A stretch of DNA of 64,000 nucleotides from Monocercomonoides exilis PA203 (lineage: Eukaryota > Protista > Preaxostyla): positions 310,001 through 374,000 of the forward strand of contig LSRY02000059.1 of the NCBI GenBank assembly GCA_001643675.2, read 5' to 3'. Positions 8,650 to 64,000 of this stretch are shown in pieces (the stretch's first letter is position 1; each line of letters starts with the position of its first letter). The position numbers were made by a program, and so were the translations under genes. The notes under the pieces were generated by a model, which made no database searches, had not been told where the DNA came from, and saw only the letters and a list, made by a program, of their open reading frames with translations.

Positions 8650-8906
8650 GGGAGATTGTTTTTGAAATCATGTTTTTCCATTCAAATATTTCGGTTCAAA
8701 AATTTCACTTTAATATCACTGAAAGAACACTGAAAAGAGAAAAGGATTATTCAGTTCATCATCGTTTTTAATTTGGATTAAATATATGTCTGAGATGTTG
8801 TTCTGAAACCTTTTTTGTTTTTTTATGCAAAATCTCTTCCCAGTGACAAACAACCTTCGAAAAATTATCACTCCGAAAAAAGTCATGATATCAAAAATGA
8901 TTACCA
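8650..8906 (-). mobile_element. MITE family B copy (257 bp), inverted relative to the 61649 copy
   Basis: Ends gggagattgtttttgaaatcat ... atgatatcaaaaatgattacc. Reverse complement contains tgaataatccttttctcttttcagtgtt, matching tgaataagccttttctctcttcagtgtt at about 61800. Confidence 0.8.
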
Positions 8907-9395
8907 TATATTTATGTTTTTGAATCAGTTATTAATTTCTTGTTTATTCTTAATAATAAAAAAAGAAACACAAGAAATTAAAGAACGTGGTATAAAAAAA
9001 ATTCAAAAACTTTCAAATGAGCTGTTTTCATTGAATGAATAGAAACTGAGTATATTTCACCAGTTTCGTATCATGTTTATTATTGCAGAAGTTTTAAACA
9101 TAATGACGTTTTTAAAAATGATTGTCAATTCTCACTCATTTCATTTTGTTTGTCTTGTTTTATAAGCACGACAATGGAAATGATATATTTTCCTATTTCA
9201 CAATTTTGATCACTTATTCAAAGCTATATTCGAGGATCTGGGCTGTTGCAGGAGTTTTGTGAATGTAGTTCACAAGTCCACTTTCTTTTAAGCTTAAAAA
9301 AAAAATATTATCTGATGAAGATACATATAAATTATCATTCGTTACAACTCACAAAAGTTATTCCACTCTGTCGCGAGTTGAACCAGATCTCACTT

Positions 9396-9663
9396 GGGGG
9401 AAAATACCGACTTTCAAGCTTTTTTTGCACAAAGTGAGAAAAAATAGTTTCTCTTATCGCATTACTAAACTTAATCAGATTTCAAAACAAATTGAATTTT
9501 CATGTCCGTAAACAAACATCAATGATATAAAAACATTATGTTTTGTGACATCAAATGTATTTCTAAAAATAAATCCATTTATATCAAAATTTTTGATCAC
9601 AAAAAGTTCATTAAAGATGCATAATTATTCAATGAAAATAGCTGAAGTCAAATATTTTGTCCC
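9396..9663 (+). mobile_element. MITE family A copy (268 bp) flanked by ACTT direct repeat
   Basis: Colinear with 58571-58838 over its full length (same 268 bp). Ends GGGGGAAAATAC ... ATATTTTGTCCC; actt at 9392-9395 and 9664-9667. Confidence 0.88.
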
Positions 9664-9759: not shown

Positions 9760-10769
9760 TATCCATTGGCAAGTCGAGTCAATACATTTTCTGACAGGTG
9801 TATTCGGTAGTCATCGTGCATCAAGACTGACCGTGTCTTCATGTATGGAAAATCAATCTTTTCAGGTTGACACAAGTGAAGAAAACCATCTCAATACAGT
9901 TTTCAAACAATTCCAATGAAATAGCGATGAATTTCGATTTCCGCGCAGCTATGAATTCAAGTTCGAGAGCCCAGAGACTGAAGTGATCATATATTGAACG
10001 ATTATTGTATCAGAAAACAAGGAGGAACAAAAATTCCATCAAGAAAATAGTGGAGCAACGATATGCTTTTTTCTTCTCTGTCAACAGGCGTGTGATCAAA
10101 TTCACGATTAATATTTGTTCTTCCCATTAGGTTCACCTTTCTTGTATCTTCATGGGCATGACAACCTGATTCATCAGCACAGAAGATCATTGAAGAATAT
10201 TTTCCACATGCATATTGAATTAAATAATTTTTGCATGAAATGATGTTTTGTTCGGAAATTTTCATTCTTTTTTCATCTCTCACGCTTGAAGAGACGACCA
10301 TCAATTCCTCGCTATCCCTTTTGATGAAAGAATAATGAAAATCATGAGATAAGGTTTTTGACAAACTTTCTCAACTTTTAATATTTTTTTTATTTTTTTA
10401 TTGGTGTGATTTGTTTTCTTTTATCTTCAGAATTCCTAGAATTTCATTGACTTGTTTTTATTGTTTACGAGAAATCAATATTTTCTTTATCTCCCAAACT
10501 TTTTTCCTTTTATAATTGGTTTGAATGTTGAAGAAAGGGCTCGGAGGGCAGTTGAGTGCCTTTGCAATTCGCATGTTTGAATGTGTTTTCACTTTTCTTA
10601 TCTTGCATGTGTTTAAGAAGGAACGAATTAACGAAACTTTTGTTTTTGAAGTGTTTTGCTGTCGAAATGATGAAAGGAACTGAAAGTCAAATAATCGAAT
10701 GAATACCATTAATACTGTTTCAAATAAAGTTAAGCTAAAAGTCGAAAACTCTGAAGATATTTGTATCAA
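9760..10769 (-). pseudogene. Degraded pogo/Tigger-like (DDE_1, Tc1/mariner superfamily) transposase
   Basis: Fragments in different frames with stops: SNMRIAKALNCPPS (HTH-like), IFCADESG (cf. IFNxDETG), KSISLLHYFLDGIFVPPCFLI, ISLELFENCIEMVF, SVLMHDDYRIHLS (cf. LLILDGHxSH). Confidence 0.75.
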
Positions 10770-55183: not shown

Positions 55184-58100
55184 TTATAAATCATCTTCAT
55201 CAATTTTTCCTTTCTTCTTCCTTATATTACCTCCAATTTCAACTTTATTTTCTTGTGAATTGTATGCCTCCATAATTTGTTCTGCGGTAGTTGCATCTTC
55301 TGGGGATTTATCAGGTCGCACTCTGAGAAAACGAGGGAAACGAAGAGCAAGTCCTCTTCCATCTTCAAACTATAAGTTTTATATTCAAAAAATAGTTGAT
55401 TCAACAAAAAAAAAAATCAAAAATTGTCAAAATAAATTGAATGTTAAACCATCTCGCTTGCTGCTGTATGAAGAGGAGATATCGAGAATTCTGATCCTTT
55501 CACTTCCCAAACAGTCCATGGCTCAAACCAAACATCAGGTTTAAGACGAGGATCAGTTGAATGTGAAACATTTTCTGGAGGATTTGTTTTAATATGATCA
55601 GCTGCCTCTTCTGGGAATGTTTTCAGAAATTCTTCATCAAATCCTGTTCCAATCTGTTTGAAATAATTATAAAAATTCAAAAATGAAAGATCATAAGAAA
55701 AGAATCAAAGAATGAAGAATGAAGAAGTCTCACAAGCCTTTGTAACAGTCTGAAATGTGTCCAACTCAGGATTGTAGCACGCGAGCAGAAAACTTCCAAA
55801 CCAGCTGTTTCTTTTCCCTGTTCCGTATTTTGCGCCAATCGGAACTAAATCAAAGGAATCGCCCAGAGCATTCAAATAATCCTTCTTCAGTTTCACCCAC
55901 GCATAGCTTCTCCCTGGCACATATCCTGCATTCAACGACTTCACCATGAGCCCCTCGCATTTTGCTTTCACTGATGCTTCCATCGTTTCCATCATAGCTT
56001 CTTCGTCTTCGGGATCAGAAAACGAAGCAAACTGGAACATTTTGGGGATTTCCACAAAATTTTCTCTCAAAACCTTCCTTCGCACGCTGAGTGGCTTGTT
56101 CATCATGGTTTCTCCGTTGTAATAAAGCAGGTCAAATGCCATCACACAAACCTGCACTTTGATTTCGTCGATTCGCACATCTTTCTTCGATCGTGTTGAA
56201 AGCGTCTGAAAAGGCTGAATGCAGTTTGTCTCTCGATCAAATGCCACCACTTCTGTATCCAAAATAAACCCTCCATTTTTAGCACCGCTTCCAGCATGCT
56301 TTTTGTGTGAAGCCTTTCTTTCATTAGCTTTTGTGTTGGAACTTGAAGCTGGTTCTTCATCCATCTCATCACTGTCTTCGTCTTTTTCTGTTTCTCCTTC
56401 ATGTTCGCTTTCTTCTTCGCTGTCTGGTTTTGGTTGGTATGCTGCTGCCACAATTTGCAGTGCATCAGGGAACTTTCCTGTGAGATTCTCGCAGTTGCGA
56501 GAAAAGACACTTGGTGAGTGGCCTTTCGCTGTTGACAAAGTGACAATTGGCAATCCCTGCAATGCAGGTTGCTGTGAAGATGGAGAGGCTGAAGGAGATT
56601 TCACACTTTGACCATCATCTTCGCGAGACTTTATTGCACCCTCAGGAAAATGGAACTGTGCTCTCTGACCATCGTACTTGTACTCACATGTATATTTCTC
56701 TCCAAATGCAGAAACTTTCTGTATTGCTTCTTTTGCACTCGTCATTGGCTTTGCCAGCATCGCCATGATGGGCACACCTGGTGTTATGGTGCATGAATCC
56801 TCCAAACCCCGAACACCACCACTGCTATTTACTATCGCAGCTGATATCTTGTCAAACGAATTTGTCAATGCCCAGGCACTCTCTACAATGGCACGTGCTT
56901 CACAAAGTTCTCCCACAAACAGAGAATAATCTTGTGGAGCACTCGATGGCTTTGTGATTGCAGCTGCATGTGCTAAAGCACCAAGAATAGTCTTCATTCC
57001 CAAATGGGAACGAAGCTTTCCCTATGAAAATGGAGTGTTGAAAAAAATGAAAGTGCTTCAAAGTCAAACAAATTTTAAGAAATGTGCAATTGAAAACCTG
57101 TAAAGTCCTAACAAGAAACTTTATCTCGTTTTGCCTACAAGCAGCAAACATATTCATAATTCTACCTTTCTTTTCCTGCAAATATATAATTGTAATAAAT
57201 ATAAAGGCGTTAATTATATAACTCATTTTCATTCAGAAAATGAGCGCAAACATCTCTTTTTCCGGATAAAGCAATCTCTCTGAACATTTTAAAAATATGT
57301 GAACAGGTTAAAGGAGCTGGTTGGATAAGCAATCTTTGTGTGGATTTCAAATCTTGAGCAAGATCTCCCAAGTCAGTTTTATCTTTTAAATGTTTTTTTA
57401 TTGTTTCAACTTTTGTTCCAGAAGTCTAAAAATGTGAAATTTTTGAGCATAAAACAATGAGCACTCAAAGAAATATCTACTTAAAAATGTTTGCATACAT
57501 CGGCAAGGCATTGTATTAGAAGAGCGTCTCCAACACCCAGCTCTAATTCTTCGTATGGTGGACCAATCTTTCAAAATATTATTTCATAATTTATGTGGAA
57601 TCATAATAAATTATACCATGTCTGAGCATAAATACAAAACAGTTACGAAATCTTTTGGTGTTTGCAAAAGAACTGCTCGAAACAAATTGCATAACATTTC
57701 TAGATGATCCAATCTATTCAAAATTTTTTATTATTAAAAACAATTACAAAAAACTTTTTTTGAAAATGATTATGTGTACCGTTTTGTTGTTGATTCCATT
57801 GTTGTGAATGTTTTTGCAACTTCAAGATATGGAACAGGAGCTCCAGCCTTCCAATGATGTTCAATAGTTGGATCTTTCACATATCCTCTTTTGTAGATTG
57901 TTATCAAATAGATAAAATATTTATTATTTTTATATAAATTTGGAAAAAAAAGTATACATCGATTCTGGTGTTCCATTACAATATCCTCGAGCTTTTGACC
58001 CAGCTTTAGCGCCTGATCCGATGACAGGTCGATGAGTTGTTTTTGAAGTGTCATATAATTTTAGATGAACTAATTCCTTTGAAATCTGTTTTAAAGGTTT

Positions 58101-58367
58101 TGCTTCTTCCAAAGAAGAATCATCACTTTCATTTAAATCATCTGCGTCTTCAGATAATTCTGCTTCAAGATCGTAATCACTAATTGGAGCTTCTTGTTCT
58201 GATGGAGTTAATACTTCTTCTGTTTTCGATAGCTCCTTCGGTTTCACAATTTCTTTTTTCTAAGGTATTATAAATTTTAAATTTAAGTAAATTAAAATGA
58301 ATTAATTTGACAAATATTGAGTTACCTTCCCAAAAAAAGACAATAAATTTGGTTGAGTTGTTGACAT
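55184..58367 (-). CDS. LIG1: DNA ligase I (ATP-dependent), multi-exon
   Basis: N-terminal PIP box [22 protein letters not shown] (motif I), [54 protein letters not shown]. Confidence 0.95.
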
Positions 58368-58570
58368 TTTTTAATATGGGTGGCATGGTTATTGTTTTAA
58401 ATTCATTGATTGGACATTTTGAATGTTCAAATTTATCTGAAGTTCAATTAAATGAAACAGACAATATTCTATTTGAATTATTTTTGTTAATAATTGCAGT
58501 TGTTTAAAAAAATAATTATTTTTGCCTCAAAAAATAAGTCATAATAAAAATGAGAACAATTAAATCATAT

Positions 58571-58838
58571 GGGGGAAAATACGGGTTTTCAAGCTTTTTA
58601 TGCACAAAGCAAGAAAAAATTGTTTTTCTTATAACAGTACTAAACTTTCTCAGATTTTAAAATAAATTTGATTTTCATATCCGTTAACATGTATCGTTGA
58701 AATCAAAACATAAAGTTTTCCAATATTTCACGAATGTCAAAAAATGCACCAATTTTTATTGCATTTTTTGATCTCAAAAAGTCAATGAAAAGTGCATAAT
58801 TTTTAAACGAAAATGCCTGAAGTGAAATATCTTTCCCC
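58571..58838 (+). mobile_element. MITE family A copy (268 bp) flanked by ATAT direct repeat
   Basis: Colinear with 9396-9663. Ends GGGGGAAAATAC ... ATATCTTTCCCC; atat at 58567-58570 and 58839-58842. Confidence 0.88.
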
Positions 58839-59047
58839 ATATAATAGACATATTTTAAATATATTTTTTCAATTAGAAAAAGTGGAACAAAATTGAAATA
58901 AGTTTGATATAAATGCGATAAAATAAATTCTTTTTCAAAATGACTCAATCAATTTTAAAAACTTTAAATACTGGTTTATCGATCATAAAGTTGATTGAAG
59001 AAAAATTGGTGTAAGATCAATTGAAATTTTGCAAATAAATATTTGTC

Positions 59048-60076
59048 ATGGAACGATTGAATTTTTTGGAGGTTCTTGAGCGTGCAGAAAAAAGAATAAC
59101 GCTTCCAACGCACACGCCAATAACTCCGGAAGAGAAAAATAATTCCTTAATAAAAAAAGCTTGTCAAAAAAGCGAAGATCCCATTCACGGATTTTTCCGC
59201 TTGACAGGTTTCACAAGAACAGAATTTGATATGTTGCTTCTTCTTCTTGATTACGAATTACCTCAACATCGTGGAAAGCAAAAGGCAATTCAAAATATTG
59301 ACGAACAACTTTTTGTTTTACTCAATTTCCTTCATTTGGGCTCAACATCAATGACAGAACTTTTGACTTATCCATTTTACAAATCACATAGCTCAGTTAC
59401 GCAGTTATTTCACAGCATCGTTGGAAACATAAAAGATACACTTGTTAATTTACTTTTGATTTTTCGTAAAGATAGAATCAAAGAGTTGCAAGAGGTTGGT
59501 CTAATTATGGATTGTGCAATTGTGCCTATTAACAGGCCAAGTGGAAAATTGGCAGATGGAATGAAATTTTTTAGTGGAAAACATCATTCTTACTGTGTTA
59601 AAGTTGAAATTGGGGTCAACCCAAAGAACGGATTAGCTAGCACAATCAGCGATTTTTACCCAGGAAGCGTTCATGACTATGAAATATTCAAAAATCACTA
59701 TCCAACCTTCTCTCAACATCTCAAAGGTTCCAAAATCATTGCAGACTCGGCCTATATGGGAGCAAAAGCAGAATTGGGAGCTATTATTACAAAACCCCAA
59801 GGAACACCATATCTATCGAAGCACAGGGTTATTGTGGAAAGGTTTTTTGGACGATTAAAGACTTTATTTACTGTGTTCAGAAGAAATTGGCCTATGGATA
59901 TTAAAACAGTTGAAGATTTTTTTATTGTTTCAGTTTGTTTAACCAATTTTCTCATTTTACACAATCCTTTAACGAAATCAGATTGCGATGCAAACGAGTT
60001 GATTATTTACGAACTTCACACTCAATTTTATCAAAAAAAAAGAAAGCGAAAAAGAAAGCGAACGAGCAGTATATAG
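59048..60076 (+). mobile_element. DDE_Tnp_4 transposase (PIF/Harbinger-ISL2EU-IS5-like), catalytic triad intact
   Basis: LIMDCAIVPINRP, FFSGKHHSYCVKVE, YPGSVHDYEIF, IIADSAYMG, HRVIVERFFGRLK. N-terminal FFRLTGFTRTEF...EQLFVLLNFL helical block. Confidence 0.92.
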
Positions 60077-60241
60077 AAAGACAAAGAAAAAAACTTAATC
60101 TTGCAAATGAGAATTCAACTTTTGAATATTCAAAGTCAATCCAAAGAATTGGTTTGTTTTTGTTTTTACGCCCATATTGTTCTTTTGAGCATGAAAAGAA
60201 CATTTTTTCACTTTCATATTTCCATTATTTATCATTTTAAG

Positions 60242-60828
60242 AAGAATCAACAGAATCAGATGACCCATACTGCGAACGATTTTCCAAGCGTCCAGATCAA
60301 GAGAAAAAACAAAAACATTCATTATTGGAATTAGAAGAAAGAGAAGAAATAGAAATAGATGATGATTCAACTTTTGAAGAAAAAGAAAAAGAAAAAGAAA
60401 AAGAAAAAGAAAAAGAAAAAGAAAAAGAAAAAAGAAAAACTGTCAATTTCAATATTTCTGAAAGAAATGAAGATAAGTTGAAGGAAATAGAAAGAATAAA
60501 CGATGATACAAGAAGTTGCCCTTTTTCTTGGTTTCTTCCAGATCAATGGGAATCAGCTCGTTTGCGGAAGACGACTTCATCTAATCAGTTTTTATTGAAT
60601 TCTTCTTTGCCCCTAATAAATACACAATATTCTTCTCAGGCTTCACTGAATGAAACGGCAATTACTCCTCAACCACAGTCAAATACTCCAATTTCGTCTT
60701 TGCAATTGATTTCAACTCATCATTTATTTTCTCAACAATCAGATTCTTCTGCATCTTCAGATTCAAACTTATCTCGGGCGCGATCTTCTTCTTTCTCATC
60801 CAATGAAAATCATAGTCAAACAAAATAA
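60242..60828 (+). CDS. Probable terminal exon of the transposase gene (acidic, EK-repeat, Ser-rich)
   Basis: Phase-compatible with donor ATT G|GTTTGT at 60151 via intron 60152-60241. Contains ORF 60325-60828 and (GAAAAA)n. Confidence 0.55.
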
Positions 60829-61648
60829 CAATTACTGTATTCAAATAACCACATGAAGGCCATTATCATCTTTATCATTTATTTAAATAAACATTCACCA
60901 AATTTCTCTCTCATTTCTCTCTTTTTTTTAAAAAAAGGAATAAGAATTTTTAGAATTATAAGATTTTTTCTTTTGTTTTATTTTTCAGAAAAAATTTTTT
61001 AAACTAAAACTTCATTTTCATTCTTTGTTATTTCATATCCAATAAAAATTGAAGTTGAAATGAAAATATTGCAAAATGTGAAAAAATTTAAGAAAATACA
61101 ATTAGAATCTCGTTAAAAGCTAAAATGGAACATCCAAAACATGTTACAATATTCAAAGCTTGTGTATATGAAAGAGAATACATCAATAATATAAAAAGTC
61201 ACATTTAAGAAAAATTGACAGAAAAAACTCAAAAATTATAAAAAATTGATCACACACATTTCTTTTTGATGATGAGCCATAATCTTTTGTTCAGTTTTCA
61301 TTCAAAGTGAGTGAAAAATGCACAAAAACAAAAACTTGCGATCATTTTGTGTTGATCATAAAATTGCCCTTTTAACCAAAAAAAAGTTTAAGGGAATTCG
61401 AATTAGATGAAGCAAATTTGGATAAGTTGAAGGAAATTGGAATTGAGTGAACATATTTGAATTTATTGATTCTAACTAAAATAGGTCTTTTTTTTAAAGA
61501 AATGATAATTCATATTTTGATTTTCATTTATTCTCATAAAAAAATTTTTTTGTTCAATCACATGATGTTGTTAAAATAATATTCCCTTTGCATTGATATT
61601 TATTCAGTTGTTTAGGAATAATTTGCCTGCAAAAAATATTTTGTATAT

Positions 61649-61905
61649 GGGTGTTTATTTTTGAAATCATATATTTTTTCGGTGTGTTGATTTTTTAAGA
61701 TTGTTGATTATTCGAAAGTAATTTTCATTTCAAAAGAAAAAAAGCATAATAATTGTTTTTCACGTAAATGTTTTCGTTAAATAAAAAATTAAAATGTTTT
61801 GAATAAGCCTTTTCTCTCTTCAGTGTTTTTTTATTGTTATTCAAGATATATTTTTGCACCGAAATTTTTGAATGAAAAAAGTTATGATTACAAAAATAAT
61901 CACCC
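61649..61905 (+). mobile_element. MITE family B copy (257 bp), 23-bp TIR, ATAT direct repeat
   Basis: gggtgtttatttttgaaatcata vs reverse complement of right end gggtgattatttttgtaatcata (21/23). atat at 61645-61648 and 61906-61909. Confidence 0.88.
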
Positions 61906-62666
61906 ATATTTTAATTTTTCAATAAAAAATTAAACTTTCAATCTTGAAATTTTTTCACTTTGAAAAAACGAAAAGTTGTCATTCGAATTTCAAACGTTAT
62001 TAATTAAATCTCAAATTTTCTTATTTTGAACTATTCTTGGAGTTTAAAAAAATACCAAAAGAAAAACCAAAATTTTGGCAAAAATAATAAACTGGGCAGC
62101 TATGATAATAGTGATAATTTTTTCCATTATGATGATGTCTATCTTTACGAATGCACGAGTGTTTAAAAAATTTTTTTCTTAGAATTATGTTTGAATTTTG
62201 TTTTTGATCTTAATGAATAAGAATTTTGAATTCAGAGATGTTAATGAAAGAATTTGAAAAAATAATGAGAAAATTAATCGACAAAATCAAAGTTAAATTA
62301 TGAAATAATTTCTTTCTTTGACCCAAAAAACATTCTATATTTTGCTATGTTTTATTTGACAAAAAATGAATTCGTTTAAATTTTCATGAGTGAAATTATG
62401 ATGGTATTAAAAATTAATGTGTTTAATTAAATAAAATAGATCCTTTCGTTTAAATTTCCAGTGATCATAAAAATGCATTTTATCTTCAAATTAACCTCAC
62501 AACTCATAAAATTTCACCATCATGTCAATAATAACATTATTAGGCATATCTTTCCGTAATAGTAATATTTGGTGAGTTGGAATGATAATTTCAAAAAAAA
62601 TTGAAAATTTTATTCTCACATTAAAATTAAACAAAATGAACTTTTCAAAAAAATAAAGACACATAA

Positions 62667-62928
62667 AAGTGATAATTATCGAAATTTTAACATTTTCCGA
62701 CGTATGGAAATTATGAAAATTCATTGTCAGAGAAAATCAATTAGTCAATGAAATGAAAAAATCATTTCAATAGTGTCACAAGTCAAAGTTTGATGTTAAT
62801 GAAAGACTGAGATGTTTTTCGTTTAAAGTTATCCCTATCATGTGTTCATTGAAAAAAAAAAAAAAAAAACAAATTAATCAAACCAATATTTTTTAGTTCG
62901 AAATAAATAAATTAAAAAACAATCACAC
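62667..62928 (+). mobile_element. Degenerate MITE family B copy
   Basis: aagtgataattatcgaaatt...aattatgaaaattcattgtca matches the left part of the 63137 copy. Right end aaaaacaatcacac lies at the expected distance. Confidence 0.5.
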
Positions 62929-63136
62929 CACTCCAACAACGTTCTTGATGCAATTCATTTGTTTAACCATTTCACTTTTTCAACTATATAAATATCATAT
63001 CAAACGATATTATTTGATTTCTAAAACTGATGTGAAAATGCTGATGTAATTATTTTCTTTATTGATCATTCGATCCATGAAATGACTAAGAATATCTTGG
63101 ACAAATATCCAATTCGTGTGTTGATTTTCATAACAT

Positions 63137-63391
63137 AGGAAATTATTTTTGATATCATAACTTTTTTCGGAGTGTTCATAATTATGAATATTCATTGTCA
63201 TTGGTTAACTAATTATCATTCTAATGAATAATGTTTCTTTATCGTTTCAAAAGACATAATTTTTCTTAAAAAATAGCATTGTCGTCATAAAATTGATCTT
63301 TTTCTTTTCAAAGTTCGTTCACGAATATTCATAAAAAATATTCTTCCCGAAATTTTTGACAGAAAAAATTTGATTGCAAAAATAATCACCC
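63137..63391 (+). mobile_element. MITE family B copy (255 bp)
   Basis: aggaaattatttttgatatcataacttttttcggagtg ... ccgaaatttttgacagaaaaaatttgattgcaaaaataatcaccc; flanks acat / agat. Confidence 0.8.
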
Positions 63392-63908
63392 AGATGAAAA
63401 AAAAAAACCAATAGGAACGATTTATCAGGATTTTGCAGTTTAGAAAACAGTATCGAATTTTTGGATTAGCTTTGAAAATTAGCAATTTTCATTGAAAATT
63501 TCTCACATTACCATTTGCAAGCAAAAAATTTCTAGAATTAATTGTTTCTAACATTGCACTTTTAAATTATGTCAATTTTGTAAATATAAACGTTTTTATC
63601 ATAGATTTCAATTTCTCTTGTAAAATGAAATGTATAAATAATAAGTTAAGAAGAGAGAATAACAGAATTATATAAATGTTGAAAAAATGATAAATATTGT
63701 AAAAAATGAACTTTGATTGTCACTTGTTGAACGAATAATTATAAAAAACATTAATCACGAATATCTCTTGATTTAATAAATATATGTTTATGTTACCAAA
63801 ATCTATATCACACTAAAAAAATTAAAAAAAGTGAATTGAATGACGTACAATAATTATAAAGTACGACATTTATTGAAATGTAAATAGTATCATGAATAAT
63901 CACAATTG

Positions 63909-64000
63909 TCATGTTTTATGTTCATTATCTGAGTTTACACCACTTCCATTATCTTCATCATCATCATCATCTCCTTCGTCCTCTTCTCTCTCTTCATTGC
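63909..64000 (-). CDS. 3' end of a gene entering from beyond the window (acidic tail)
   Basis: NEEREEDEGDDDDDEDNGSGVNSDNEHKT* with a GC rise at the window edge. Confidence 0.5.
   Translation of the reverse strand, partial: NEEREEDEGDDDDDEDNGSGVNSDNEHKT

What the first reader, a model, noticed from the sequence alone, without database searches (positions are those of the whole stretch)
59048..60828. Harbinger/IS5-like transposase that needs a -1 shift at an A9 slippery run and then splicing to reach full length
Seen: the 342-aa DDE ORF reads CAA AAA AAA AGA (A9 at 60033-60041, containing an A_AAA_AAA heptamer) and stops about 12 codons later. The -1 frame continues as a basic helix KKKAKKKANEQYIERQRKKLNLANE up to a typical local donor ATT G|GTTTGT (60152). 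A 90-nt intron ending tttaAG (60241) then joins in exact phase to EESTESDDPYCERF...LELEEREEIE... and ORF 60325-60828, giving about 563 aa. Known: X_XXY_YYZ A-rich heptamers drive -1 frameshifting in bacterial IS1/IS3 elements. Inference: this may be a eukaryotic DDE_Tnp_4 gene making short and long products by recoding plus splicing. It could equally be a simple 1-nt homopolymer indel (assembly error or inactivating mutation). The host-like intron and low-complexity tail, with no obvious own TIRs, also raise possible domestication.
Basis: partly seen in the sequence, partly recalled or inferred. Interest (0 to 1): 0.75.

Follow-up and report, generated by a model that had tools for sequence, protein, structure and literature searches.

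The report
Broken copy of a protist transposon
This is one damaged copy of a repeated jumping-gene family in a gut protist, and its apparent ribosomal frameshift is a two-letter surplus that sister copies lack, likely a private mutation or sequencing error and not a recoding signal, so it is ordinary.

Summary
The A9 run, the early stop, the basic helix in the -1 frame and the in-phase 90-nt GT..AG segment are all in the window. The recoding reading fails. In DNA contigs of four runs (one sample) the element is multicopy. The dominant contig in three runs has two A fewer at 60033 (A7) and reads straight into the helix. In the fourth run only 73 of 1141 depth shows this gap. 13 of 15 homologues carry the helix in frame at the A7 spacing; a -1 shift would add one lysine. 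No stimulator folds downstream, and the whole DDE domain lies before the run. This copy also has private, mostly amino-acid-changing substitutions (6 of 7 listed), some at conserved sites, as expected of a decaying copy. The stop inside the candidate intron is absent from most copies, so splicing is plausible but not needed for frame, and no RNA was available. Private mutation versus assembly error could not be separated. Domestication is not supported. It is a DDE_Tnp_4 (PHIS/IS5-like) transposase whose closest relatives are annotated Monocercomonoides exilis proteins; element ends were not found.

The parts
59048..60076 (+). 342-aa ORF of this copy: N-terminal helical part, full DDE_Tnp_4 domain (D155, D233, E264), then an out-of-frame 13-residue tail after the A9 run
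60033..60041 (+). A9 run; dominant sister copies have A7 (and G at 60043), so this copy carries a 2-nt surplus that shifts the frame
60037..60151 (+). continuation in the family's frame: basic helix with the ANE-x-Y motif, in frame with the DDE domain in homologues
60152..60241 (+). candidate 90-nt intron (GTTTGT...AG, 51% T, 25.6% GC); stop-free and a multiple of 3 in most copies, where 60239 is T; splicing untested
60242..60828 (+). low-complexity charged and serine-rich tail with the W-F-L-P-D-Q-W motif (about 60529-60549) shared with four paralogue gene models
58843..61500 (.). multicopy body of the element as far as it was tested; it runs on past 61500 and neither end was defined
58571..58838 (.). 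268-nt high-copy MITE-like repeat, GGG...CCC ends, flanked by a 4-bp ATAT duplication; abuts the element's left side; relation to this transposase unknown

Best explanation
The locus is one copy of a multicopy DDE_Tnp_4 (PHIS/IS5-like) transposase gene whose sister copies read through the A-run in a single frame, and the A9 here is a two-base surplus, likely a private slippage mutation in a decaying copy or an assembly error, not a programmed frameshift. Shown: the family has A7, the helix is in frame in homologues, and this copy differs from the majority by private, mostly non-synonymous changes. Inferred: intact copies make one cut-and-paste transposase of 562 aa if the 90-nt segment is spliced or 592 aa if not (DDE core, basic helix, disordered tail); this copy would make at most a 342-aa protein with a cut helix and altered conserved residues, and is probably dead. 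Within this reading I put real private mutation at about 0.55 and assembly error at about 0.35.
For: Two letters left out at 60033 in X2 12.2 of 12.2, X3 18.8 of 22.2 and X4 552.1 of 666.7 depth; the other X4 contig (114.6) also loses two letters there, at 60038 and 60043. 60043 reads G in X1 843.6 of 976.7, X2 12.2 of 12.2, X3 22.2 of 22.2, X4 552.1 of 666.7, giving QKKEAK as in paralogue P0009. 13 of 15 homologues long enough to test have the helix motif 31 residues after NPL, the A7 spacing; a -1 shift gives 32. In the wider family 99 of 118 aligned relatives run 45 or more residues past NPL (median 57) against 37 here. 6 of the 7 coding sites where all four runs mostly differ from the window are non-synonymous (8 of 9 with two less clean sites; neutral expectation 79%), including A157 where 15 of 16 homologues have T and L302 where 10 of 13 have H. 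Depth over the element is several times the flank in all four runs (medians 3.7, 5.6, 7.5 and 36 times) and annotated paralogues at 93% and 91% identity exist. No downstream structure beyond shuffles: -3.4 against -2.8 +/- 1.8 kcal/mol.
Against: In run X1 only 73 of 1141 depth (4 contigs) shows the 2-nt gap; I attribute this to short contigs that end at the run, which is inference, and 97 of its 342 laid contigs are 99% or more alike to the window, so some may carry A9. One diverged copy (X3 record 13, X1 record 1) has 3-4 gap letters at places not shown, so a second copy shifted at this run is not excluded. All four runs are one sample and one study and may be the source of the assembly. Only the 40 best-supported substitution rows were shown (549 and 72 hidden), so the 6 of 7 count is a selected sample. 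Depth is not a copy number. 14 of 118 distant relatives end within 38 residues of NPL. No RNA data.
Confidence: 0.9

Rival explanations
1. Programmed -1 ribosomal frameshifting (or +1 transcriptional slippage) at A9 makes short and long transposases as a regulated feature, as in bacterial IS1, IS3, IS5 and IS630 elements.
For: The heptamer and the -1 continuation exist. Frameshifting is used in IS1, IS3, IS5 and IS630 families (PMC5009743, passages) and 9A runs are slippage-prone and used by IS genes (PMC1088944, abstract). The state of A9 in a few X1 contigs and one diverged copy is unresolved.
Against: The site is not conserved: dominant copies have A7 and are open. Homologue spacing fits A7, not the shifted product. 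In IS elements the shift fuses a DNA-binding ORF to a downstream catalytic ORF, whereas here all three catalytic residues precede the run. No stimulator; the heptamer is common in local ORFs. This copy looks decayed.
Confidence: 0.03
2. Sub-question, assembly error: the genome has A7 (or another in-frame form) at this locus and the extra letters are a consensus error in a homopolymer within a repeat.
For: No contig of X2, X3 or X4 that covers the run shows A9. A published M. exilis assembly paper reports that 454 and Nanopore errors concentrate in homopolymers and that multicopy parts are polished less well (PMC8767320, passages).
Against: The window's other private alleles are missing from the contigs too (59952 T in none of the four runs), which fits the stated loss of rare variants from contigs, so absence of A9 is not evidence. 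The copy carries many private substitutions and a nearby one at 60043, as a real decayed copy would.
Confidence: 0.35
3. Domesticated transposase: a host gene that lost its ends and gained an intron and a low-complexity tail.
For: No TIR pair was found around the gene in the window; the candidate intron looks host-like.
Against: Multicopy sequence extends through non-coding flanks from about 58843 to past 61500, with several diverged haplotypes. Private changes are mostly non-synonymous and hit conserved sites. The tail motif is shared by paralogues at 52-56% identity, so it is a family trait.
Confidence: 0.04
4. Sub-question, no intron: the 90-nt segment is coding in intact copies, which make one unspliced 592-aa protein, and the TAA at 60238-60240 is a second nonsense lesion of this copy.
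For: 60239 is T in X1 1707.9 of 2025.7, X2 12.2 of 12.2, X3 21.3 of 27.9, X4 313.3 of 470.9, which turns the stop into Leu and leaves the segment stop-free and a multiple of 3. GC does not drop at the donor (0.27 before, 0.28 after). A diverged copy has C at 60240, which removes this AG.
Against: The segment is 51% T against 20-31% in the flanking coding parts and 25.6% GC, like published M. exilis introns (25-27.6% GC, mean 119-124 bp). GTTTGT is the top hexamer at GC-rich to AT-rich transitions elsewhere in the window, 7 against 1. The majority allele gives a canonical TAG acceptor. One diverged copy has a 1-nt insertion inside the segment. Paralogue tails are shorter (73-79 aa to the W motif against 115 spliced, 145 unspliced).
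Confidence: 0.35

Closest known systems
Monocercomonoides exilis 'putative DDE superfamily endonuclease' gene models (P0001 MONOS_10634, P0002 MONOS_8985, P0003 MONOS_5270, P0007 MONOS_5433, P0009 MONOS_16012, P0026 MONOS_10039)
   Same: 93% and 91% identity for two truncated models, 50-62% for nine others; same DDE core, in-frame basic helix and, in four models, the W-x-x-P-x-Q-W tail motif.
   Different: This copy has the 2-nt surplus and a longer tail; its 342-aa product is not in the collection by exact look-up.
[quoted passage not shown]
   Same: DDE_Tnp_4 domain; the model puts the first D in a strand, the second D after a strand and before a helix, and the E in a helix; nearest Atlas clusters are DDE_Tnp_4 proteins.
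   Different: No second ORF (Myb/SANT or YqaJ) and no THAP domain found in the window; TIRs and TSD unknown, so no subgroup can be assigned.
Bacterial IS5-family transposases and recoded IS elements (IS1, IS3, IS5, IS630)
   Same: Distant similarity to NF033581 (E 3.3e-9) and an A-rich run in the gene.
   Different: 36.5 bits against a cut-off of 140; the run is not conserved and lies after, not before, the catalytic domain.

Membership tests
DDE_Tnp_4 (PF13359) transposase | Profile match above the curated cut-off over the whole domain | tested here: met
   80 bits against 24.8, profile 1-158 of 158
DDE_Tnp_4 (PF13359) transposase | Catalytic D, D, E triad | tested here: met
   D155 and D233 invariant, E264 nearly invariant in 17 sequences; the best fold matches are transposases and integrases, none at E <= 0.001
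Transposable element (mobile, not domesticated) | Several related copies, including non-coding flanks | tested here: met
   Depth step and several haplotypes from about 58843 to past 61500; paralogues at 93% and 91%
Transposable element (mobile, not domesticated) | Terminal inverted repeats and target-site duplication | tested here: inconclusive
   No convincing pair in 58400-64000; right end lies beyond the stretch laid
PIF/Harbinger | Second ORF with a Myb/SANT domain | tested here: not met
   No Pfam family in six frames of 60829-64000 read through stops; upstream lie the MITE and a host gene; a decayed or more distant ORF is not excluded
PIF/Harbinger | 3-bp TWA target-site duplication | tested here: inconclusive
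   Element ends not found
ISL2EU | THAP domain in the transposase and a second YqaJ ORF | tested here: not met
   No such Pfam hit
Bacterial IS5 family | NCBIfam IS5 model above cut-off | tested here: not met
   NF033581 36.5 bits against 140
Programmed -1 frameshift / slippage site | Shift site conserved among copies and homologues | tested here: not met
   A7 and open frame in dominant contigs; 13 of 15 homologues at A7 spacing
Programmed -1 frameshift / slippage site | Downstream stimulatory structure | tested here: not met
   Three windows fold no better than mononucleotide shuffles; pseudoknots not modelled
Programmed -1 frameshift / slippage site | Shifted product detected | not testable with these tools
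   Needs a reporter, ribosome profiling or proteomics
Spliceosomal intron 60152-60241 | Spliced RNA reads | not testable with these tools
   No RNA holder listed
Spliceosomal intron 60152-60241 | GT..AG ends, host-like donor and composition | tested here: met
Domesticated transposase | Single copy under purifying selection | tested here: not met
   Multicopy; 6 of 7 listed private coding changes non-synonymous

The most novel reading that the evidence does not exclude
The A9 is real and is kept in a sub-lineage of copies as a leaky -1 frameshift or slippage site that throttles a full-length transposase, which would be IS-style recoding in a eukaryotic DNA transposon, combined with an optional in-frame intron.
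Probability: 0.03. Interest if true: 0.7.

Novelty: new member of a known kind. Interest (0 to 1): 0.1.

Why it matters
As found, it matters little: a frameshifted copy of a repeat family. It is a useful warning that A-runs in repeats of AT-rich protist assemblies mimic recoding sites and should be checked against sister copies. What is left of mild interest is the family itself: a DDE_Tnp_4 lineage in an oxymonad with no partner ORF seen, a conserved tail motif and undefined ends. A search for Monocercomonoides + DDE + transposase listed one paper, on Merlin (listing only). If recoding were true it would be notable: none of the 12 listed of 41 papers contains 'ribosomal frameshift', and the held part of a large recoding review has no occurrence of 'DNA transposon'. 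These searches are narrow and do not prove absence from print.

Tried and rejected
No whole genome is held for this window, so copies could not be listed one by one. No RNA holder was listed; this says nothing on expression or splicing. Protein searches with the -1 frame piece (longer proteins) and the 3' ORF found nothing; both are weak for short or low-complexity queries. Exact look-up of the 342-aa ORF and of a version from an inner ATG was negative. Inverted-repeat and self-BLAST searches gave MITE ends but no ends for the transposase element. Six-frame Pfam scan of 60829-64000 gave no family. PDB sequence search gave only two weak unrelated hits; the fold search gave no match at E <= 0.001, with ISCth4, piggyBac and Tn5 transposases on top. 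Earlier scan findings: none by sequence or place. One literature search returned nothing. Rejected: A10 as the original state (homologue spacing and contigs give A7); the 342-aa ORF as a complete natural form with an NLS tail (homologues continue in the other frame); the MITE ends as the transposon's own TIRs (the MITE has both its own ends and a 4-bp duplication, and no matching right end was found). I did not look at supplements of any paper.

Full report
Observation. The window has an ATG at 59048, a 342-aa ORF to 60076, and nine A at 60033-60041. The ORF holds a complete DDE_Tnp_4 domain at 154-300 with D155, D233 and E264 conserved. An AlphaFold model (mean pLDDT 79) shows a mixed strand and helix core and a last helix 310-340 that runs across the break.

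Source. The best homologues are annotated Monocercomonoides exilis proteins, at 93% and 91% identity for two truncated gene models and 50-62% for nine more; 21 proteins passed E 0.001. The organism is therefore inferred to be this oxymonad or a very close relative. No whole genome was held.

The element is a repeat. Contigs of four DNA runs (one sample, one study) were laid on 57300-61500. Depth left of 58567 is flat (about 34, 4, 4 and 104). From 58851 to 61500 it is a median 36, 3.7, 5.6 and 7.5 times higher. Depth is not a copy number, but several distinct long haplotypes cover the same place, with 3, 32 and 53 differing letters. Non-coding flanks are included, and the right end lies beyond 61500.

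The A-run in sister copies. Two letters are left out at 60033 in X2 12.2 of 12.2, X3 18.8 of 22.2 and X4 552.1 of 666.7 depth; the remaining X4 contig, a diverged copy, also loses two letters, at 60038 and 60043. Position 60043 is G in most contigs of all four runs. The majority thus reads Q-K-K-E-A-K-K-K-A-N-E in one frame, like LQKKEAKRIANE in paralogue P0009. Against this: in X1 only 73 of 1141 depth shows the gap. X1 is broken into short contigs and has many one-letter homopolymer losses, and one loose end at 60039 continues as expected for A7, but I cannot exclude A9 in some X1 contigs. One diverged copy has three or four gap letters at places the table did not show.

Protein register. 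Of 15 stored homologues with the NPL motif and enough sequence after it, 13 have the helix motif at offset 31; the two most distant have no match to the motif. The window gives 31 with A7 and 32 with A10 or a -1 shift. Among 144 further relatives from a whole-library search with P0026 (576 hits at E 0.001, best 150 listed), 118 aligned at NPL, 99 of them run 45 or more residues beyond it, and 14 end within 38. The helix is ordinary in-frame coding sequence, and the lesion is a 2-nt surplus, not a missing base.

No signs of recoding. The 70-100 nt after the run fold no better than shuffles. In-frame A_AAA_AAN heptamers occur 18 times in 11,501 codons of long ORFs in the window. In bacterial IS elements the shift fuses an upstream DNA-binding ORF to a downstream catalytic ORF (PMC5009743, passages); here the catalytic triad lies before the run. 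9A runs are slippage-prone in bacteria (PMC1088944, abstract), so a little accidental read-through is possible if A9 is real, but nothing suggests selection for it.

This copy looks decayed. Of the 40 best-supported substitution rows shown (549 hidden), nine fall in the ORF before the run. Eight are non-synonymous; leaving out two that X2 does not show, 6 of 7 are. The neutral expectation is 79%; 6 of 7 has P 0.55 under it and 0.009 under an assumed purifying rate of 35%. The window has A157 where 15 of 16 homologues and the sister copies have T, L302 where 10 of 13 have H, and F121 where 10 of 14 have L. This argues against domestication and for a dead copy.

Mutation or assembly error. No contig of X2-X4 covering the run shows A9, but none shows the window's 59952 T either, and the tool states that contigs drop rare variants. 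A paper on an M. exilis assembly reports homopolymer frameshift errors and poorer polishing of multicopy parts (PMC8767320, passages). The two cannot be separated here; I put them at about 0.55 and 0.35.

The intron. For: 51% T and 25.6% GC against 20-31% T and 30-35% GC in the coding parts, published intron GC of 25-27.6%, GTTTGT as the top donor-like hexamer in the rest of the window (7 against 1), a TAG acceptor in most copies, a 1-nt insertion inside the segment in one diverged copy, and shorter tails in paralogue models. Against: the only stop in the segment, TAA at 60238-60240, is TTA in most copies, so the family frame is open for 592 codons without splicing; GC does not fall at the donor; the diverged copy lacks this AG. 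No RNA holder was listed. I put splicing at about 0.65. The 3' ORF does belong to the protein: its W-F-L-P-D-Q-W motif recurs in four paralogue gene models, which are predictions.

How it likely works. Intact copies would express one DDE cut-and-paste transposase (562 or 592 aa) with a basic helix and a disordered tail; this follows from the domain and from established knowledge of PHIS and IS5-like transposases, and was not tested. This copy would give a truncated, mutated product or none.

Classification. It is a DDE_Tnp_4 protein that works like PHIS/IS5-type transposases. It cannot be filed as PIF/Harbinger or ISL2EU as defined in PMC4482050 (parts 1-2 of 4 read): no partner ORF or THAP domain was found and the ends are unknown. 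It falls far below the bacterial IS5 cut-off.

Verdict. The sequence observation is right and the recoding and domestication readings are not supported. It is a frameshifted copy of a repeat family; interest 0.1.

Noticed in passing
window 58571-58838 and 9396-9663: 268-nt MITE-like repeat with GGG...CCC ends and 4-bp flanking duplications (ATAT, ACTT); 77% identical pair; depth hundreds to over a thousand times the flank. The transposase that moves it is unknown; a 4-bp duplication does not fit the six PHIS groups as I read them.
   Followed up: partly
window 61649-61905, 8650-8910, 63138-63395: A second MITE-like family with GGGTG...CACCC ends; the 61649 copy has a 4-bp ATAT duplication.
   Followed up: partly
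window 55184-58367, minus strand: ATP-dependent DNA ligase gene (Pfam DNA_ligase_A_M for 55708-57021). Its 5' exons seem to reach an ATG at 58367, head to head with the repeat, but this is inferred from recalled motifs; the upstream ORFs gave no Pfam hit. One intron appears to start with GC (GCTTGT near 55737).
   Followed up: partly
window 10005-10370, minus strand: 122-aa stop-to-stop frame with IFCADESG, recalling an IS630/Tc1-type transposase remnant (motif recalled); no Pfam hit.
   Followed up: partly
proteins P0008, P0027 against P0026: Near-identical paralogue models end at EDS (264 aa) or continue into the charged tail (372 aa), so the tail junction is variable, or variably predicted, in another subfamily too.
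   Followed up: no
window 58842 / 60994: One X4 contig joins the MITE end to 60994 on the opposite strand, suggesting a MITE inserted into another copy of the element.
   Followed up: no
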